Positions 1-41,390 of a stretch of DNA of 64,000 nt are shown here, one piece after another (the first letter of the stretch is position 1; each line of letters starts with the position of its first letter). Under the pieces are notes generated by a model. It was not told the DNA's origin and ran no database searches. It worked only from the letters and a program-made list of their open reading frames with translations. Made by a program: the position numbers and the translations under genes. The stretch is from an uncultured Actinomycetes bacterium (lineage in GTDB: Bacteria; Actinomycetota; UBA4738; HRBIN12): contig OY969934.1 in assembly GCA_963704725.1 (NCBI GenBank), positions 2,208,001-2,272,000 of the forward strand, written 5' to 3'.

Positions 1-378
1 GATCTCTCGATGCGAGAGCGCGCTGCCGCCCGACGTCGTGTCGCTCACGGTCCCGATCCCTCCTCACCGCGGACCCGTCGAGACTCTCACGACCGGGTCG
101 AGCGTGACATGCTACGGTCGTCTCGACGCGTTCCGAGTGGCTTCCCGGCGGGTCGATCTTCTCGACCCGGCCCGGCGACACGGTGAACGTAGCCGCCGAA
201 CAGAGACCTCCCTGGTGGGCGATCGGGAGCGGCGAAGGCGATGGCGCGAGGAGGCGACCCTCCGAAGCCGCATCGTGGAATCGGCTCGGGAACGATGATC
301 CCCCACGTCCGGATCCGTCTCCATGGCTATCGCAGCATCGTGGCGGGCCCGTCCGGCGCGGCGGAGGAGGGAGGCAGC

Positions 379-814: not shown

Positions 815-889
815 TGGTGGGCGCTAGAGGATTTGAACCTCTGGCCTCTTCCGCGTCAAGGAAGCGCTCTACCCCTGAGCTAAGCGCCC
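815..889 (-). tRNA. tRNA-Val(GAC)
   Basis: Reverse complement GGGCGCTTAGCTCAGGGGTAGAGCG...CTTCC-TTGACGC-GGAAG...GGTTCAAATCC...GCGCCCACCA; cloverleaf with encoded CCA. Confidence 0.97.
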
Positions 890-915
890 GCAGCCCGGCA
901 TGGTACCGGGTCTCG

Positions 916-986
916 AGGCGGGGACCGGAATTGAACCGGTGTACAGGGTTTTGCAGACCCTTGCCTAACCACTCGGCCACCCCGCC
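916..986 (-). tRNA. tRNA-Cys(GCA)
   Basis: Reverse complement GGCGGGGTGGCCGAGTGGTTAGGC-AAGGGT-CTGCAAA-ACCCT...GGTTCAATTCC...CCCCGCCT; CCA not encoded. Confidence 0.97.
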
Positions 987-29384: not shown

Positions 29385-29460
<76 letters not shown>

Positions 29461-36901: not shown

Positions 36902-37894
36902 ATGTCCGACGTCCAGCCGTCCGCTCCCGCGCTCGAGCGTCAGATCGCCGCGCAACCCGACGAGCTCGCCCGCCTGCTCGACCAGCCCATCCCGCACTCG
37001 ACCATCGAGGGTCTTCGCCAGGCCCATCGGATCTGGCTCGTCGGGACGGGCACCAGCCAGCACGCCGCCGAGCTCGGCGCGATGATGCTGCACGAGGCGG
37101 GCCGCGGCGCGCACGCGATGAGCTCGATGCACTTCGTGAACTGGGCCCCGCCCATCGACCCGGCGGACGCCGTAATCCTGATCAGCCACAACGCCGGCAC
37201 CGAGACCTCCTACGCCGGCGCGGCATGGACGATCGCGATCCATGCGGGGCTCGGGGTCATCCCCATCACGCGGCGGGGCGGCCAGATGCACGGCGCGATC
37301 CAGACGGTCGACAAGGAGACCTCGCACACCTACTCCGTGAGCTACACGGCGGCGCTCCTGGTCCTGGCACGGCTCGCCCTCGCGCTGGGGGCCGACGGCA
37401 TCGACGCCGAGATGCTGGGACGCGTCCCGGACGCCGTCCGGACGGCGATCGCCGACCCCGGGACCGACGCCTTCGAGCCGCCGGGCCGCCTCCTCGTCCT
37501 GACCGGTGAGGGCCCCTCCTCGGTGACCGCGCGCGAGGGCGCGCTCAAGGTCCGGGAGGCCTCCCGCTTCCCCTGTGAGGGCTACGACGTCGAGTACCTC
37601 CTCCACGGCCATGCCGTACCGCTCTCGCCTGAGGACCGCCTGGTCGCGCTGACGCCGCCGGACACCGACGGCCTCGTGGCCGCCGTGGCGGGTGCCGCCG
37701 AGGCCGCGGGAGTGCCGGTGACCCGGGTCCTCGAGCCGGCGGACCTCCCGCCGCTGCTCGCCCAGATCCCCCTGGTGGTGCGGCTCCAGATCCTGGCGCT
37801 GCGGTTCGCCAAGGCGCGAGGGTTCGACCCCGACGTCGCGATCGAGGGGCCGTGGGCCGACGAGCGGCTGTGGGCGATCGGCTCCCCCCGGTAG
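36902..37894 (+). CDS. SIS-domain sugar isomerase/deaminase (GlmS isomerase-domain-like)
   Basis: QIAAQPDEL, LVGTGTSQHAA, EGALKVRE, LLHGH, QILAL..A.ARGFDPD. Confidence 0.85.
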   Translation: MSDVQPSAPALERQIAAQPDELARLLDQPIPHSTIEGLRQAHRIWLVGTGTSQHAAELGAMMLHEAGRGAHAMSSMHFVNWAPPIDPADAVILISHNAGTETSYAGAAWTIAIHAGLGVIPITRRGGQMHGAIQTVDKETSHTYSVSYTAALLVLARLALALGADGIDAEMLGRVPDAVRTAIADPGTDAFEPPGRLLVLTGEGPSSVTAREGALKVREASRFPCEGYDVEYLLHGHAVPLSPEDRLVALTPPDTDGLVAAVAGAAEAAGVPVTRVLEPADLPPLLAQIPLVVRLQILALRFAKARGFDPDVAIEGPWADERLWAIGSPR

Positions 37895-37905
37895 CCGTCC
37901 CGGCG

Positions 37906-38487
37906 TCAGAGGTAGCCGTGCTTCAACAGCCGATCCGCACCCTGGTCGAACCGCTCGGGCGTCACCACGATGAACCCCAGCGTGTCCGCGACGCGGTCGA
38001 TGAGGTTGAAGCAGAAGGCCACGAAGAGCGCGTCCACCACACCCTCGACGCCCACCCCGGCCGAGAGCACCGGCTGCACGTCGCTCGGCCGGACCTCGCC
38101 CGGGCGAAGCGTCACGGTGTCCAGGAGCGCCAACGTCGCGCGAACGCGTTCGGATACGGGGGCCGTCCTCCAGTCCCGAAGGACGGCGGCGGTCTCCTGC
38201 TTCCCGAAGCTCTTCGACGCGACCGCGCCGTGGGCCCCCGTTCAGAACTCGCAGCGGTTGCGCTCGGAGACGAAGGCGGCGAACAGCTCCCGCTCGCCGA
38301 CCGTCCACTCCGAGGGACCGCGCATGACCTGCTGGATCAGCTGGTTGAAGGGGCTGCCGAAGAACGACGGCCGGTACGAGAGCGTCTTCACGACGTCGAC
38401 CGGGGGAGCCCCCGACAGGAGCCGGATGACGGCGAACTTCGCCTTCGCCCCGGCCCCCCGGCCCCGGGCGATCGCCTCGAGGCGCAT
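37906..38487 (-). CDS. AhpD/carboxymuconolactone decarboxylase-like peroxidase-related protein with in-frame TGA (putative selenocysteine, C79-x-x-U82), 193 aa
   Basis: ORFs 38242..38487 and 37906..38133 are in the same frame, joined by one TGA (38242-38244) in ERELFAAFVSERNRCEF*TGAH; C-terminal half has FNLIDRVADTLG. Confidence 0.8.
38206..38241 (-). promoter_or_regulatory. Putative bacterial SECIS element
   Basis: After UGA: 11 nt, then CGGCGC-GGUC-GCGUCG hairpin; lower stem GGGGC/GCUUC. Confidence 0.6.
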
Positions 38488-38807
38488 CAGGCCTCTTCCT
38501 CGGCCTCGCCGACGGCCCGGAGGCCGGCCTGCAGCCGCTCCAGCGCGGCGCCGTAGGCCGCCGCCACCGTCAGCTCGAACACGTGGTCCTGGTCCGCCCC
38601 GGCCGCACGGAGGCCGGCGACGTCGTCGTCGGTGATCCGGTAGGCGTGCCGGTGGATCGTGTCGACGAACGCCGTGTAGGGCTCCGGCACCCCCTCGTTG
38701 CGAGCGGCCGAGCGCCGGACCTCGGGCTCGAGCACGCCGGGACTCTCCAGGATCGCCTCGCCGAGCGCCTCGAGCAGCGGGCGGTGGAGGTCGGTGGCGT
38801 CGGTCAT
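38487..38807 (-). CDS. Small CMD/AhpD-like partner protein without Cys
   Basis: AYRITDDDVAGLRAAG..QDHVFELTVAAAYGA helical pattern; TGATG coupling to the UGA-containing gene. Confidence 0.75.
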   Translation of the reverse strand: MTDATDLHRPLLEALGEAILESPGVLEPEVRRSAARNEGVPEPYTAFVDTIHRHAYRITDDDVAGLRAAGADQDHVFELTVAAAYGAALERLQAGLRAVGEAEEEA

Positions 38808-38874
38808 CGGGACATCGCGCGGAGTATCTCCGCCCGCGGCAGGCATGGCAACCGCGGGAGGTCTGTCGGCGGAG

Positions 38875-40236
38875 TCAGCGCTCGGCGGGCGCGCCCCGGT
38901 CGGCCGGCGAGGTCTCGTCCTGCGCGAGATCCCTCACCGCCGCGTGCACGCGCGCGCCCACCCGGGCCCGAACGAGGATCCCGGTCTCGCACGCCGTCTC
39001 CGAGAGCACCTCGGCCTCGCGGTGCAGGAGCGCTGTGACGTCCTCCCGCCCGTAGGGCACGAGCAGCGAGACCTCGATGGGGAACCGCGGCAACGCGTCC
39101 TCGACCCGGTCCCTGAGCCCCTCGAGCCCCTCCCCGGTGACGGCCGAGATCTGTGCGGCGTCGCCGTCGAACCGGTTCCTCAGTCGCTCGCGATCGGGCT
39201 GGGAGAGCCGGTCGACCTTGTTCAGGGCCAGCACCTCCGGGATCCGGGAGGCCCCGATCTCGTGCAGCACGGTGCGAACGGCCTCGATCTGCTGCGGGAG
39301 CTCCGGCGAGGACGCGTCGGCGACGTGGAGGATGAGCGTGGCCCGCGCCACCTCCTCCAGCGTCGAGCGGAACGCCTCGACGAGATCGTGCGGGAGCTTG
39401 CTCACGAACCCCACGGTGTCGGAGAGCGTCGCGGCGCGGCCGCCGGGGAGCTCGATCCGCCGGACGGTCGGGTCGAGCGTGGCGAAGAGCTGATCGGCCA
39501 CCACGACGTCCGAGCCGGTGAGCGCGTTCATGAGCGTGGACTTCCCGGCGTTCGTGTACCCGGCGATGGCGATCTGGGGGATCCCCGATCGCTCGCGGCT
39601 CGACCGCTTCACGTCGCGGGTGCGGGAGAGGTCCTTGAGATCCTTGCGCAGCTTGGAGATCCGCCGCTTGATGTGCTGGCGGTCGATCTCGAGCTTGGTC
39701 TCGCCGGGGCCGCGCCGGGTGCCGATGCCGCCGCCCATGCGGCTCATGGCCTCGCCCCACCCTCGCAGGCGCGGCAACAGGTAGTTGAGCTGCGCCAGCT
39801 CGACCTGCGCCTTGCCCTCCCGGCTCCGCGCGTGCAACGCGAAGATGTCCAGGATCAGCGCCGTGCGGTCGATGACCTTGACCTTGAGCTTCTCCTCCAG
39901 GTTGCGGAGCTGGCCCGGCGTGAGCTCGGAGTCCAAGATCACGGCCTCGGCGCCGGCGCGATGGACCTCGCGGTGGATCTCCTCGAGCTTGCCCTTGCCG
40001 ACGAAGGTCGCGGGGTCGGGGTCCTGGCGCGTCTGCAGGACGCGGGCCACGGTCTCGGCCCCCGCCGAGTCGGCCAGCGCCGCCAGCTCGTCGAGGTCCG
40101 ACTCCTCGATCCCCCGACCCACGCCGACGAGCACGGCGCGCTCCTGCACCCGTGGCCGCCACGTGGCGGCGAGCGGCGACTCGAGCGTCGTGGTTTCGTG
40201 AACGCCCCGGGGTCGCTTCCGTCCGTTCTGCGACAT
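38875..40236 (-). CDS. hflX: Ribosome-splitting GTPase HflX
   Basis: LILDIFALHA.SREGKAQVELAQ, GPGETKLE, GYTNAGKS, LFATLDPT, DTVGF, NKVD. Confidence 0.97.
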   Translation of the reverse strand: MSQNGRKRPRGVHETTTLESPLAATWRPRVQERAVLVGVGRGIEESDLDELAALADSAGAETVARVLQTRQDPDPATFVGKGKLEEIHREVHRAGAEAVILDSELTPGQLRNLEEKLKVKVIDRTALILDIFALHARSREGKAQVELAQLNYLLPRLRGWGEAMSRMGGGIGTRRGPGETKLEIDRQHIKRRISKLRKDLKDLSRTRDVKRSSRERSGIPQIAIAGYTNAGKSTLMNALTGSDVVVADQLFATLDPTVRRIELPGGRAATLSDTVGFVSKLPHDLVEAFRSTLEEVARATLILHVADASSPELPQQIEAVRTVLHEIGASRIPEVLALNKVDRLSQPDRERLRNRFDGDAAQISAVTGEGLEGLRDRVEDALPRFPIEVSLLVPYGREDVTALLHREAEVLSETACETGILVRARVGARVHAAVRDLAQDETSPADRGAPAER

Positions 40237-41390
40237 CAGGAGAGCATGGCGCGAAGACGCGTCATCGCCTCGGCCAGGCGGTCGTCCGGCACGGTCAGCG
40301 ACAGGCGGACGTAGCCCTCGCCGAGGCTGCCGTAGCCGTTCCCGGGCGCGACGAACACGCCCGCCTCGTCGAGCAGCCGATCGGCGAACGACACCGAGGT
40401 CTCGCCCTCGGGGACCGGCGCCCACACGTAGCACGAGCCGAGCGGCGGCTTGAGCGACCACCCGAGGTCGTTCAGCGTCCCGACGACGACGTCGCGCCGG
40501 CGCCGGTACGTGGCGCGCAGCTCGTCCAGGTGCTCCGGCGGGCCGTCGAGGGCGGCGATCGCGGCTCGCTGAACCGCCGTGAACTGCCCGCTGTCCAGGT
40601 TGGTCTTCACGACGCCGAGCGCCCGGATGGCCTCGGCAGAGCCGGCCGCCCAGCCGATCCTCCACCCCGTCATGTTGTAGAGCTTCGACGCCGAGCCGAA
40701 CTCGAGCGCGACGTCCTTCGCCCCCGGCACCTGGAGCACCGACGGCGCCACGAACCCGTCGAACGTGATCTCCGAGTACGCCGCGTCGTGCAAGAGGAGC
40801 AGGCCGTGGTCGCGGCAGAACGCCACGGCCTCCTCGAACGTGGTGAGCTCGGCCACGGCCGCCGTCGGATTGGACGGGTAGTTGAGCCACATCGTCCTCG
40901 TGCGTTCGCCGACCGGTGCCGCACCGAAGTCGGGCAGGAAGCCGTCCTCGGCCCGCAGCGGGAGCGAGATCGGGACGCCCCCGGCGAGCCGGGCGGACAC
41001 GCCGTAGACGGGGTAGCCGGGGTCGGCCACGAGCGACTCGTCGCCGGGGTCCACGTAGGCCAGGGCGATGTGGCCGATCCCCTCCTTCGACCCGATGAGC
41101 GCCATGACCTCGGTCTCCGGGTCGAGCTCGACGCCGAACCGCCGCCCGTAGAAGGCGGCCACGGCCGTGCGGTATTCGATCGAGCCCCAGTAGCTGGGGT
41201 ACCGGTGCGTGGACGGGTCCGCCACCGCCTCGCGCATCGCCTCGACCACGTGGCGGGGGGTGGGCAGGTCGGGATCGCCCACGCCGAGCGAGATCACGTC
41301 GACGCCCTGGGCCCGCTTGGCCGAGACCTTCCGGTCGAGCTCGGCGAACAGGTAGGGCGGCAGCGACTCGATCCGCCGGGCCACCCTCAC
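40236..41390 (-). CDS. dapL: LL-diaminopimelate aminotransferase (class I/II PLP enzyme)
   Basis: LPPYLFAEL, ISLGVGDPDLPTP, IGSKEGIGH, NYPSNPT, HDAAYSE, SKLYNMTGWRIG, KTNLDSG; coupled downstream of dapF. Confidence 0.8.
   Translation of the reverse strand: MRVARRIESLPPYLFAELDRKVSAKRAQGVDVISLGVGDPDLPTPRHVVEAMREAVADPSTHRYPSYWGSIEYRTAVAAFYGRRFGVELDPETEVMALIGSKEGIGHIALAYVDPGDESLVADPGYPVYGVSARLAGGVPISLPLRAEDGFLPDFGAAPVGERTRTMWLNYPSNPTAAVAELTTFEEAVAFCRDHGLLLLHDAAYSEITFDGFVAPSVLQVPGAKDVALEFGSASKLYNMTGWRIGWAAGSAEAIRALGVVKTNLDSGQFTAVQRAAIAALDGPPEHLDELRATYRRRRDVVVGTLNDLGWSLKPPLGSCYVWAPVPEGETSVSFADRLLDEAGVFVAPGNGYGSLGEGYVRLSLTVPDDRLAEAMTRLRAMLS

What the first reader, a model, noticed from the sequence alone, without database searches (positions are those of the whole stretch)
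37906..38807. Hidden candidate selenoprotein: AhpD/CMD-like gene with a CxxU motif, a SECIS-like hairpin and a coupled Cys-free partner
Seen: two short ORFs in the track (38242..38487 and 37906..38133) are one reading frame broken by a single TGA. The TGA sits where the second Cys of the AhpD-type motif belongs (ERELFAAFVSERNRC-E-F-[TGA]-TGAH), and the frame continues without stops to give 193 aa. Eleven nt after the UGA is a hairpin CGGCGC-GGUC-GCGUCG with a lower GGGGC/GCUUC stem. Established: the E. coli fdhF SECIS upper stem starts about 11 nt after UGA and has a GGUC-containing loop, and AhpD-like CxxU selenoproteins are known. The bulged U of fdhF is not evident here. Inference: UGA is recoded as Sec. 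The translationally coupled upstream 106-aa CMD-like protein, which has no Cys, may form a two-subunit selenium-dependent redox enzyme, placed between hflX and the lexA region. Standard gene callers would split or discard it.
Basis: partly seen in the sequence, partly recalled or inferred. Interest (0 to 1): 0.85.

Follow-up and report, generated by a model that had tools for sequence, protein, structure and literature searches.

The report
Hidden selenoprotein gene with conserved partner
An apparently broken antioxidant-type gene is almost certainly a real gene whose internal stop codon is read as selenocysteine; such proteins are already known, but its constant companion gene, a stripped-down copy of itself, appears undescribed.

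Summary
On the minus strand, 38487..37906 is one frame of 193 codons broken only by TGA at codon 82 (38244..38242), inside E67-x11-C79-x-x-U82-x3-H86. A hairpin CGGCGC-GGUC-GCGUCG (38230..38215) starts 11 nt after it.

The reading as selenocysteine is strongly supported.
- The genome holds selA, selB, selD and tRNA-Sec(UCA), plus an fdhA with an in-frame TGA.
- Of 117 homologous loci examined, 107 carry TGA in exactly this column and 10 carry Cys.
- In 98 distinct Sec-form sequences the hairpin pairs in 99.3% of cells. Four of 7 pairs show compensatory double changes, and the loop GU never varies.
- Synonymous variation in the hairpin codons is 1 of 192, against 481 of 1560 elsewhere in the gene.

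The protein has the AhpD-like/CMD fold (PDB 6K40, 2OYO). It belongs to the CxxU AhpD-like selenoproteins known since 2005.

The 106-aa upstream gene is a Cys-less paralog that lacks the active-site helix. It lies beside the selenoprotein gene in 116 of 117 loci and is fused to it in three natural Cys-form proteins. A homologous pair was predicted to bind (0.94 against 0.02 for the best control). I found no description of this two-gene module.

The parts
37906..38487 (-). AhpD-like (CMD-fold) selenoprotein gene, 193 codons plus TGA terminator, with UGA-Sec at codon 82
   Evidence: frame; TIGR01926 67.5 bits, below the 81.8 cut-off; PDB 6k40 E 1.7e-20, 2oyo 5.1e-18; model pLDDT 93.1; Foldseek 6k40 E 1e-8, TM 0.73-0.77
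38242..38244 (-). In-frame TGA read as selenocysteine (U82). It aligns with the second Cys of CxxC in Cys-form homologs and in solved AhpD-like structures
   Evidence: TGA in this column in 107 of 117 loci, TGC/TGT in 10
38215..38230 (-). SECIS upper stem-loop CGGCGC-GGUC-GCGUCG inside the coding sequence (codons H86-S91). The stem starts 11 nt after the UGA and the loop (38224..38221) starts 17 nt after it
   Evidence: 99.3% of cells paired in 98 distinct sequences, 4 of 7 pairs with double changes, G22 and U23 invariant
38287..38289 (-). Codon of E67, first residue of the E-x11-C-x-x-U-x3-H signature
   Evidence: Invariant in alignment A3
38251..38253 (-). Codon of C79, first Cys of the CxxU motif
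   Evidence: at least 90% conserved in A3
38230..38232 (-). Codon of H86 (CAC). Its last base is also the first base of the SECIS stem
   Evidence: Invariant His in A3; CAC in 31 and CAT in 1 of 32 sequences
38487..38807 (-). Partner gene, 106 aa, no Cys: a degenerate CMD/AhpD-like paralog lacking the CxxU helix. Its stop overlaps the selenoprotein start (TGATG)
38823..38851 (-). Promoter-like site (TTGCCA-17-GATACT) just upstream of the partner's ATG. A consensus match only
   Evidence: 1 found; mean 0.0 in 50 shuffles

Best explanation
Positions 38807..37906 (minus strand) hold a two-gene module. The second gene encodes a 193-aa AhpD-like (carboxymuconolactone-decarboxylase fold) thiol/selenol oxidoreductase. 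Its UGA codon 82 is decoded as selenocysteine by SelB and Sec-tRNA(UCA). SelB is recruited by a SECIS hairpin that lies inside the coding sequence, 11 nt after the UGA. This hairpin has a six-pair stem and a GGUC loop whose central G and U never vary. Sec takes the place of the second Cys of the E-x11-C-x-x-C-x3-H redox centre. The enzyme would then cycle between a selenol/thiol and a selenenylsulfide (C79-U82) while reducing a peroxide, a peroxiredoxin or another oxidised substrate. The substrate is inferred from the family, not shown. The first gene encodes a 106-aa paralog of the same fold that has lost the stretch carrying the active-site helix and has no Cys. It most likely pairs with the selenoprotein as a non-catalytic subunit, taking the place that a second identical chain occupies in homo-oligomeric CMD proteins. 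What is shown: the frame, the motif, the Sec machinery, conservation of the TGA, covariation in the SECIS, the fold, and partner adjacency and fusion. What is inferred: actual Se insertion, the heteromer in vivo, and the substrate. My odds are about 0.93 for Sec decoding and about 0.7 for a physical heteromer.
For: Sec machinery in the same 3.45-Mb single-contig genome: selD 376 bits, selA 472 bits, selB 292.7 bits, all over their cut-offs. tRNA-Sec scores 75.1 bits and ARAGORN gives anticodon tca. A second selenoprotein gene is present: fdhA, 621 bits, with 1 in-frame TGA.

TGA conservation: 27 of 27 matches at E<=1e-20 in 294 genomes of the class have exactly one TGA. In 401 genomes of the phylum, 12 of 16 places have one TGA and 4 have none. 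Of the best 80 of 577 relatives in genome contigs, 74 have TGA and 6 have TGC. The column is always C-x-[FY]-U. Residues downstream of U82 are invariant across Sec and Cys forms: H86, G144, F160, R165, G191, Y192.

SECIS: in 32 full-length Sec forms the six hairpin codons show 1 minor codon of 192. The 51 other conserved degenerate columns show 481 of 1560, and only 2 of those 51 columns are invariant. In 98 distinct sequences 99.3% of cells pair. Pairs 15-30, 16-29, 17-28 and 21-24 show double changes (CG>UA 4, GC>UA 4, GU>CG 5, GC>AU 9; 22 cells). None of 500 shuffles reaches that, and slid registers pair only 17-67%. Some compensations change two amino acids together (G87S with S91E). Cys forms relax the element: 9 of 10 lose the stem or the loop GU. 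The spacing fits the published bacterial rule of 16-37 nt from UGA to apical loop and a small loop containing G (passages).

Fold and motif: PDB 6k40 E 1.7e-20, with U aligned to the second Cys of CVYC. The model has pLDDT 93.1, with helix 80-93 starting at the CxxU. Foldseek top hits are 6k40, 2oyo, 3c1l, 2pfx and 2prr at E 1e-8 to 1e-7.

Partner: adjacent in 36 of 37 loci, the remaining one being cut by a contig end, and in 80 of 80 on the same strand just upstream. It is fused to the C-terminus of CEFC Cys forms in L064, L067 and P0096. It is single-copy in the genome and absent beside nine more distant AhpD-like paralogs. hhalign against the selenoprotein family gives 85%, E 6.3e-6, with a gap of about 36 residues over the CxxU region. 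Its model has pLDDT 94.7, and the ten best Foldseek hits are all AhpD-like/peroxidase-related chains with TMq 0.64-0.72. The complex prediction on the homologous pair of locus L061 scored 0.94; the best of 3 controls scored 0.02. That mark was reached by 58 of 80 solved complexes and 2 of 110 mismatched pairs. The runs agreed in at least 97% of contacts and the partner's pLDDT was at least 91.
Against: There is no direct evidence of selenium in the protein and no expression data.

Taken alone the hairpin is not thermodynamically unusual (z +0.72), and no Rfam family matches it.

Three of the seven SECIS pairs never vary, so they say nothing about structure. Related sequences are not independent, so the shuffle counts overstate significance. 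A few sequences break a pair: L099 at 16-29, L152 at 17-28, and L126, L127 and L145 at 15-30. One Cys form (L103) still has a full hairpin with a GGUC loop. So a hairpin here is not exclusive to Sec forms.

The window's protein is below the curated cut-offs of Pfam CMD (21.8 vs 23) and TIGR01926 (67.5 vs 81.8).

Partner: Pfam and NCBIfam find nothing for the window's copy. All Foldseek E-values are above 0.1. The best profile hits in PDB are designed helical repeats; 2oyo comes at E 0.0025. The complex was predicted for a TxxC-type homolog pair (46% and 40% identical to the window's proteins), not for the window's own proteins, and with my own alignments. Homo-oligomers of this fold are solved, so the pass may reflect likeness to those interfaces.
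Confidence: 0.88

Rival explanations
1. A nonsense pseudogene: the TGA is a recent inactivating mutation or a sequencing error in an AhpD-like CxxC gene.
For: A single genome cannot distinguish the two readings. The hairpin alone is no better than shuffles.
Against: The same TGA is found in the same column in 107 of 117 loci from several phyla at 43-77% protein identity. The sequence downstream is conserved. Synonymous sites are suppressed only over the hairpin.
Confidence: 0.01
2. The UGA is read through without selenocysteine, by near-cognate Trp, Cys or Arg insertion. The hairpin acts only as a generic read-through or pausing stimulator.
For: No selenium data exist. One database protein has Arg in this column (P0008). 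Several have Trp, which I read as TGA=W translation artefacts.
Against: The full Sec machinery is present. The site is the redox-active second Cys, which exchanges with Cys in homologs. The hairpin has the spacing and the invariant loop G of bacterial SECIS elements. The proteins with W also have W at the partner's TGA stop, which points to whole-contig translation with TGA=W.
Confidence: 0.04
3. Translation ends at the UGA. The N-terminal 81 aa and a separately initiated C-terminal piece are two small proteins, that is, a split gene.
For: Gene callers produce exactly such pieces (C-terminal fragments P0108-P0122).
Against: The codon after the TGA is ACN or GCN in 95 of 98 distinct Sec-form sequences (ACG 75, ACC 12, ACA 6, GCC/GCG 2) and ATG in only 3, so a start there is rare. 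The 75-aa ORF in the window starts 37 codons after the TGA, inside conserved sequence. The CxxU motif and H86 would be split between the pieces. Cys forms are single chains.
Confidence: 0.02
4. The selenoprotein reading is right, but the upstream gene is not a subunit. It might be a regulator, a chaperone for the apo-protein, or a substrate or adaptor that interacts only transiently.
For: Adjacency and fusion show a functional link, not a stable complex. The partner has no recognised family. The complex prediction was made on homologs and may borrow from solved homo-oligomers.
Against: The partner has the same fold as the enzyme. It is fused in frame in three natural proteins. The predicted interface uses the most conserved helices of both chains (chain 1 148-169, partner 76-95, alignments).
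Confidence: 0.25

Closest known systems
AhpD-like CxxU selenoproteins (COG2128 / TIGR01926 type). First reported from the Sargasso Sea metagenome in 2005, abundant in the GOS data, and listed in a 2026 review table
   Same: CMD/AhpD fold, Sec in the second position of CxxC, Cys-form homologs, and an intragenic SECIS just after the UGA (passages in PMC1088965, PMC2398784, PMC13188914). TIGR01926 is the best NCBIfam match here.
   Different: The window's protein scores below the TIGR01926 cut-off (67.5 vs 81.8). It forms a distinct clade with C-x-[FY]-U-T-G-A-H-G-A-V-A-S and an almost invariant SECIS. It always comes with a truncated paralog gene. The more canonical C-H-Y-U relatives in related genomes (L030-L032) lack that partner. 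The passages I read do not mention a partner.
Deinococcus radiodurans AhpD-like protein DR1765 (PDB 6K40) and the 'peroxidase-related' structural-genomics proteins 2OYO, 3C1L, 2PFX, 2PRR
   Same: These are the best sequence and fold matches, with the same E-x11-C-x-x-C-x3-H centre. A review passage (PMC8945050) reports that the DR1765 mutant is H2O2-sensitive and that the CxxC cysteines matter.
   Different: They are Cys enzymes and, as deposited, single-gene proteins with many chains per entry. No Sec, no SECIS and no degenerate partner are known to me. That 6K40 is DR1765 is my inference from the entry title and the review.
Mycobacterium tuberculosis AhpD (the founding alkylhydroperoxidase D that reduces AhpC)
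   Same: The same catalytic signature (Glu, CxxC, His). The second Cys is the attacking nucleophile, which is the position Sec occupies here. This is recalled from the literature, not from a call.
   Different: Very distant in sequence: the review passage gives 12% identity between DR1765 and M. tuberculosis AhpD. It has a two-repeat architecture (recalled) and uses Cys only.
Escherichia coli fdhF SECIS
   Same: A stem-loop starting about 11 nt after the UGA, with a GGUC apical loop whose G and U contact SelB (recalled, not tested here). In this element G22 and U23 are invariant in 98 of 98 sequences.
   Different: There is no bulged U. Instead there is a G.U wobble at the third pair, which changes to C-G in 5 sequences. 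The outer loop bases covary (G..C to A..U in 9 sequences). The lower stem is not conserved.
NCBIfam NF041238 (AhpD_rel_CFYUT selenoprotein) and the TIGR04030/TIGR04029 (Avi_7169/Avi_7170) pair of neighbouring CMD proteins
   Same: NF041238 is a CxxU selenoprotein with an AhpD-related domain. The Avi pair is a precedent for two different CMD-family genes side by side; the side-by-side arrangement is recalled from the family descriptions.
   Different: Scores are far below the cut-offs: 44.1 vs 175, 29.8 vs 233.15 and 17.8 vs 100.75. NF041238 is a 357-position model matched only over its C-terminal third. Both Avi models are full length (185 and 174 positions), whereas the partner here is a 106-aa remnant without the active-site helix.

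Membership tests
Bacterial selenoprotein gene (UGA-Sec with SECIS) | In-frame UGA aligned with Cys in homologs | tested here: met
   U82 aligns with the second Cys of CxxC. 10 of 117 loci and many database proteins have Cys there.
Bacterial selenoprotein gene (UGA-Sec with SECIS) | UGA conserved among orthologs, with coding conservation downstream | tested here: met
   (107 of 117 loci). (invariant H86, G144, F160, R165, G191, Y192).
Bacterial selenoprotein gene (UGA-Sec with SECIS) | Stem-loop shortly after the UGA (16-37 nt to the apical loop) with a small loop containing a conserved G | tested here: met
   The loop starts 17 nt after the UGA. G22 and U23 are invariant, and the stem is supported by covariation and by suppression of synonymous sites. 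The criteria come from passages. bSECISearch itself was not available.
Bacterial selenoprotein gene (UGA-Sec with SECIS) | selA, selB, selD and tRNA-Sec in the same genome | tested here: met
   All four are over their family cut-offs. The tRNA anticodon is tca.
Bacterial selenoprotein gene (UGA-Sec with SECIS) | Selenium demonstrably incorporated | not testable with these tools
   Needs 75Se labelling or mass spectrometry.
AhpD-like / CMD family (PF02627, TIGR01926, COG2128) | Score over the curated cut-off of the family model | tested here: not met
   Pfam CMD 21.8 vs 23. TIGR01926 67.5 vs 81.8. Many homologs at 40-53% identity do carry a precomputed PF02627 hit.
AhpD-like / CMD family (PF02627, TIGR01926, COG2128) | All-helical CMD fold like the solved members | tested here: met
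   phmmer against PDB: 6k40 1.7e-20, 2oyo 5.1e-18. Model pLDDT 93.1. Foldseek E 1e-8, TM 0.73-0.77.
AhpD-like / CMD family (PF02627, TIGR01926, COG2128) | E-x11-C-x-x-C-x3-H redox signature at a helix N-terminus | tested here: met
   E67, C79, U82 and H86. A helix starts at residue 80 in the model. The signature itself is recalled.
AhpD-like / CMD family (PF02627, TIGR01926, COG2128) | Peroxidase or disulfide-reductase activity | not testable with these tools
   Needs an enzyme assay.
NF041238 AhpD_rel_CFYUT selenoprotein | Full-length match over the cut-off | tested here: not met
   44.1 vs 175 bits. Only profile positions 223-334 of 357 match.
TIGR04030/TIGR04029 (Avi_7169/Avi_7170) CMD pair | Matches over the cut-offs for the enzyme and for the partner | tested here: not met
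   The selenoprotein scores 29.8 vs 233.15 and 17.8 vs 100.75. The partner has no NCBIfam hit.
Partner as a CMD-fold paralog | Detectable homology or fold likeness to the CMD family | tested here: inconclusive
   For: hhalign 85%, E 6.3e-6. 7 of 22 orthologs hit Pfam CMD at E<=1, best 0.0032. The ten best Foldseek hits are all in this family, TMq 0.64-0.72. Against: the window's copy has no Pfam or NCBIfam hit, and no Foldseek hit has E<=0.001.

The most novel reading that the evidence does not exclude
The module is an undescribed kind of two-subunit selenoenzyme, widespread in soil bacteria of at least seven phyla. It would have one catalytic AhpD-like chain with Sec and one obligatory, catalytically dead paralog that has lost the active-site helix and replaces the second chain of the usual homodimer. 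The SECIS that makes it work also dictates the protein sequence H-G-A-V-A-S, so that RNA pairing forces paired amino-acid changes (G87S with S91E). The substrate may not be a peroxide at all: the CMD fold also houses a Cys-dependent debrominase (Bmp8, Foldseek hit).
Probability: 0.5. Interest if true: 0.55.

Novelty: new variant of a known kind. Interest (0 to 1): 0.42.

Why it matters
The gene is invisible to standard annotation. In public protein sets it appears as N- or C-terminal fragments, as frame-jumping chimeras, or with W at the Sec site. The selenoproteome of these soil actinobacteria, and of many Gemmatimonadota, Myxococcota, Ktedonobacteria and others, is therefore under-counted.

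At least 577 related loci exist in one genome per species of GTDB. A dedicated model with its SECIS would repair many annotations at once.

The nearly invariant hairpin gives a clean natural data set on what SelB requires: the loop GU, a covarying loop-closing pair, and tolerance of G.U or C-G at the third pair.

If the conserved dead paralog is confirmed as a subunit, it would be a simple bacterial case of a pseudoenzyme partner of a selenoenzyme. It would also be a handle on the still unknown substrates of the large 'peroxidase-related' CMD clade.

Tried and rejected
Single-sequence thermodynamics: folding 38244..38190 gave z +0.72, so it has no value as evidence here.

Rfam scan of 37800..38900 at E<=10: only two chance-level hits (Cupriavidus-1, mir-3389) and no SECIS family.

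Genome-wide regex for TGA + spacer + stem + GGTC loop and a GC3-based screen for in-frame TGAs: neither discriminates in a 71% G+C genome. The second did not even recover the gene under study. I dropped both and looked for fdhA by family instead.

Synteny with hflX/SIS/lexA is seen only in L024-L026 and L028 besides the window, all from the same genus. Flanking genes in ten ORFs from six other loci are unrelated to each other. I attach no functional meaning to the neighbourhood.

Profile search of the partner against PDB: the top hits are designed helical repeat proteins that share a short 'G.SEDE.FE' pattern, and I regard them as spurious.

The look-up of sequencing runs: no RNA holder is listed. 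There are only three DNA runs with a 0.05 share of words.

Complex prediction: see the For line. I did not send the window's own U-containing protein, because the tool states that it takes proteins by code 11.

Literature: searches 'AhpD-like'+'selenoprotein' (9 papers) and 'AhpD'+'carboxymuconolactone decarboxylase'+'heterodimer' (1 unrelated paper) found no description of the partner or of a heteromeric AhpD-like selenoprotein. This covers only the held library and the passages I read. Supplementary tables of the 2005, 2006 and 2008 selenoproteome papers and of BSepDB were closed, and they may list members of this clade.

I did not use the search of protein representatives, read laying or the listing of cluster members.
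Full report
WHAT IS THERE. On the minus strand, the two short ORFs 38487..38242 and 38133..37906 lie in one frame. Read with TGA=U, the frame 38487..37906 gives 193 residues with one internal TGA at codon 82 (38244..38242), in ...FVSERNRCEF-U-TGAHGAVASK... It ends at another TGA. Eleven bases after the internal TGA comes CGGCGC (38230..38225), GGUC (38224..38221), GCGUCG (38220..38215). A 106-codon ORF without Cys (38807..38487) ends in a TGA that shares its A with the ATG of the second gene (TGATG). A sigma-70-like site (TTGCCA-17-GATACT, 38851..38823) sits just before the first ATG. Together with the N-termini of the orthologs, this favours the start at 38807 over the ATG at 38846. hflX lies upstream. 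A convergent SIS-domain gene and lexA lie downstream.

IS IT MORE THAN CHANCE? Not from this sequence alone. The hairpin region folds no better than shuffles (z +0.72), Rfam has no matching family, and simple pattern scans of the 71% G+C genome are uninformative. The case rests on the machinery and on comparison.

MACHINERY. The window lies in a single-contig genome of 3.45 Mb, 95% complete. The genome holds selD (376 bits), selA (472 bits) next to selB (292.7 bits), and a tRNA-Sec (75.1 bits, anticodon tca). All are above their curated cut-offs. It also has a formate dehydrogenase alpha gene with one in-frame TGA in ...SCNRT-U-HAPSV.... In that gene GGUC stands at +22..25 from the U of UGA and partly lies in the predicted apical loop. 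In the gene under study GGUC stands at +21..24.

COMPARISON OF THE CODING SEQUENCE. Three genome searches and one collection scan were run with the read-through protein.
- In 41 related genomes, six orthologs at 52-77% identity each have one TGA.
- In 294 genomes of the class, 27 of 27 matches at E<=1e-20 have one TGA.
- In 401 genomes sampled from the phylum, 12 of 16 places have one TGA and 4 have none.
- Of 577 relatives found in one genome per GTDB species, the best 80 have TGA 74 times and TGC 6 times.

In every case the TGA or Cys codon falls in the same column, C-x-[FY]-(U/C). Altogether 107 of 117 loci are Sec forms. The two collections may overlap: the 107 give 98 distinct 48-nt stretches. 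The named records are soil and groundwater MAGs and a few isolates. They are labelled Actinomycetota, Thermoleophilia/Gaiellales, Gemmatimonadota, Myxococcota, Ktedonobacteria/Chloroflexia, Acidobacteriota, Opitutales, Sericytochromatia and Desulfobacterales. Cys forms include Mycobacterium persicum, M. attenuatum, Actinocatenispora and Catellatospora. Residues after the TGA are conserved across Sec and Cys forms: H86, G144, F160, R165, G191 and Y192 are invariant in 27 sequences. This excludes a pseudogene or a sequencing error. Two of the genomes used (G011, G029; loci L024, L029, L037) are unpublished. They add 2 of the 107 Sec forms, and nothing rests on them alone.

COMPARISON OF THE HAIRPIN. 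In 32 full-length Sec forms from the G-handle set (L057 was left out because it is cut at its 5' end), codons 86-91 (H G A V A S) show 1 non-majority codon among 192. The 51 other columns with a conserved, degenerate amino acid show 481 among 1560. Only 2 of those 51 columns, both two-fold degenerate, are invariant. In the 98 distinct sequences (alignment A6) the six stem pairs plus the outer loop pair are paired in 99.3% of cells. Four of the seven pairs show changes on both sides:
- C15-G30 to U-A, 4 sequences.
- G16-C29 to U-A, 4 sequences.
- G17.U28 to C-G, 5 sequences.
- G21-C24 to A-U, 9 sequences.

That is 22 cells against 1.6 expected. None of 500 shuffles reaches it, and slid registers pair only 17-67%. 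G22 and U23 in the loop are invariant. Several compensations cost two amino-acid changes at once (GGC..TCG to TCC..GAG, that is G87S with S91E, in L090, L095, L116 and L137). This is hard to explain except by selection on the RNA. Exceptions exist: five sequences have one unpaired cell each. The three innermost pairs never vary and so carry no information. Among the 10 Cys forms, 9 have lost stem pairs or the loop GU. One (L103) keeps a full six-pair stem of different sequence with a GGUC loop, perhaps a recent Sec-to-Cys switch. [quoted passage not shown] I recall the likeness to the E. coli fdhF element (11-nt spacer, GGUC loop, bulged U) but did not test it. There is no bulged U here. A G.U wobble occupies the third pair.

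WHAT THE PROTEIN IS. Pfam CMD matches just below its cut-off (21.8 vs 23). The best NCBIfam model is TIGR01926 'peroxidase-related enzyme' (67.5 vs 81.8). The selenoprotein model NF041238 scores far lower. Against PDB sequences the best matches are 6k40 (E 1.7e-20) and 2oyo (5.1e-18), with U82 on the second Cys of their C-x-Y-C. An AlphaFold model (pLDDT 93.1) is all-helical, with a helix starting at residue 80. It matches 6k40, 2oyo, 3c1l, 2pfx and 2prr at E about 1e-8 and TM 0.71-0.77. E67, C79, U82 and H86 reproduce the E-x11-C-x-x-C-x3-H centre of AhpD (the signature is recalled). In M. tuberculosis AhpD the second Cys is the nucleophile (also recalled), and that is the position taken by Sec. 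[quoted passage not shown] 2020). A peroxide- or peroxiredoxin-reducing selenol/thiol enzyme is the most likely function, but the substrate is inferred only.

THE PARTNER. tblastn with the 106-aa protein finds it next to the AhpD-like gene in 36 of 37 G-handle loci; the exception, L057, is cut by a contig end. It is found in 80 of 80 named loci, always on the same strand just upstream. In L064 and L067 it lies downstream because it is fused in frame to the C-terminus of a CEFC Cys form (308 and 317 aa). P0096 (320 aa) is a third such fusion. The partner is single-copy in the genome. It is not found beside the more distant AhpD-like genes: L030-L032, which are C-H-Y-U selenoprotein candidates, and L033-L037 and L073. 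Pfam and NCBIfam do not recognise the window's copy. The Atlas places it among clusters named 'hypothetical protein' with no common Pfam family. Profile-profile comparison with the selenoprotein family gives 85% probability (E 6.3e-6). It aligns partner residues 15-100 with enzyme residues 47-171 and skips about 36 residues that include the CxxU helix. Its model (pLDDT 94.7, five helices) has as its ten best Foldseek hits only AhpD-like/peroxidase-related chains (TMq 0.64-0.72), though all at E>0.1. A complex prediction for the homologous pair of locus L061 (a TxxC form; the tool takes code-11 proteins only) scored 0.94, against 0.02 for the best of three controls. That mark was reached by 58 of 80 solved complexes and 2 of 110 mismatched pairs. 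The runs agreed in at least 97% of contacts and the partner's pLDDT was at least 91. The interface uses the conserved helices of both chains and touches residues 75-77 next to the active-site motif. Because homo-oligomers of this fold are solved, and my own alignments were used, this supports binding but does not show it. I read the partner as a non-catalytic paralogous subunit (odds about 0.7).

HOW IT COMPARES WITH WHAT IS KNOWN. AhpD-like CxxU selenoproteins were described from the Sargasso Sea in 2005 (27 sequences, COG2128). They ranked among the most abundant families in the GOS data (AhpD-like 1: 299 Sec sequences). A 2026 review lists them under TIGR01926 (passages). A 2006 survey counted two in complete genomes. 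Sec in this fold and at this position is therefore not new. This clade is distinct in three ways: it fails the TIGR01926 cut-off, it has its own motif and a near-invariant SECIS, and it is tied to a degenerate partner. I found no mention of that partner in the passages read or in two literature searches. Supplements were closed and may list clade members. I therefore rate it a new variant of a known kind, of moderate interest.

ANNOTATION CONSEQUENCES. Public protein sets show how the gene is mis-called. There are C-terminal fragments of 107-125 aa starting right after the TGA (P0108-P0122). There are N-terminal halves joined to out-of-frame upstream sequence (P0075, P0080, P0102). There are JGI proteins with W both at the Sec site and at the partner's TGA stop (P0003, P0004, P0025, P0038, P0050), which I take to be translation with TGA=W.

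VERDICT. The Sec interpretation is strongly supported (about 0.93) and the two-subunit idea is plausible (about 0.7). The lower stem and the genomic position carry no weight. Direct proof of selenium insertion, of the complex and of the substrate remains experimental.

Noticed in passing
own genome G000:C1:1791201-1793069 (+), TGA at 1791429 (outside the window): Formate dehydrogenase alpha gene (TIGR01591, 621 bits) with one in-frame TGA in SCNRT-U-HAPSV. GGUC stands at +22..25 after the UGA. This is a second selenoprotein gene of the genome.
   Followed up: partly
own genome G000:C1:400117-403337 (-), 588369-588459 (-), 2466260-2467180 (-): selB and selA are adjacent. tRNA-Sec and selD lie elsewhere. 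selD has no internal stop, so it is not itself a selenoprotein here.
   Followed up: partly
L103 (named Actinomycetota MAG), Cys-form locus: A TGC (Cys) form still has a complete six-pair hairpin with a GGUC loop at the SECIS position, but with a different stem sequence (CGAGGC/GCTTCG). It may be a fossil SECIS after a recent Sec-to-Cys switch. The Mycobacterium Cys forms share its C-Q-F-C-A-T-T-H-E-A-V-A-S motif.
   Followed up: no
L064:1153-2076 (-), L067:1501-2451 (+), protein P0096: Natural single-chain fusions of a CEFC Cys-form AhpD-like domain with the partner domain at the C-terminus, 308-320 aa.
   Followed up: partly
proteins P0003, P0004, P0025, P0038, P0050 (JGI); P0008: These database proteins have W at the Sec column, and in the long ones also at the partner's stop codon, as if whole contigs were translated with TGA=W. 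P0008 has R at the Sec column, which is unexplained.
   Followed up: no
proteins P0075, P0080, P0102 (ENA): Chimeric calls: about 85 residues of the partner, then about 20 out-of-frame residues, then the N-terminal 81 residues of the selenoprotein up to the TGA. This looks like a frame-jumping gene caller rather than biology.
   Followed up: no
L030, L031, L032 (genomes G003, G027, G007): More distant AhpD-like genes (about 31-34% identity) with an in-frame TGA in C-H-Y-U at the same column and no partner gene beside them. They are probably the more canonical AhpD-like selenoproteins.
   Followed up: no
own genome G000:C1:1490163-1490630 (+): A second TIGR01926-like gene (65.8 bits) without an internal stop and without the partner beside it.
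   Followed up: partly
L049 and L053: In L049 the partner (73 aa, then a divergent tail) and the N-terminus of the selenoprotein look frame-shifted. In L053 the frame runs on to 263 aa. These are probably assembly indels.
   Followed up: no
window 815-986 (-) and 29385-29460 (-): tRNA-Val(gac) and tRNA-Cys(gca) lie side by side, and there is a tRNA-Gly(gcc). None is a tRNA-Sec.
   Followed up: no
window 38875-40890 (-): The hflX ORF is open for 671 codons, but the HflX domains start at about residue 264. The real start is probably far downstream of the first GTG, as expected in high-G+C DNA.
   Followed up: no
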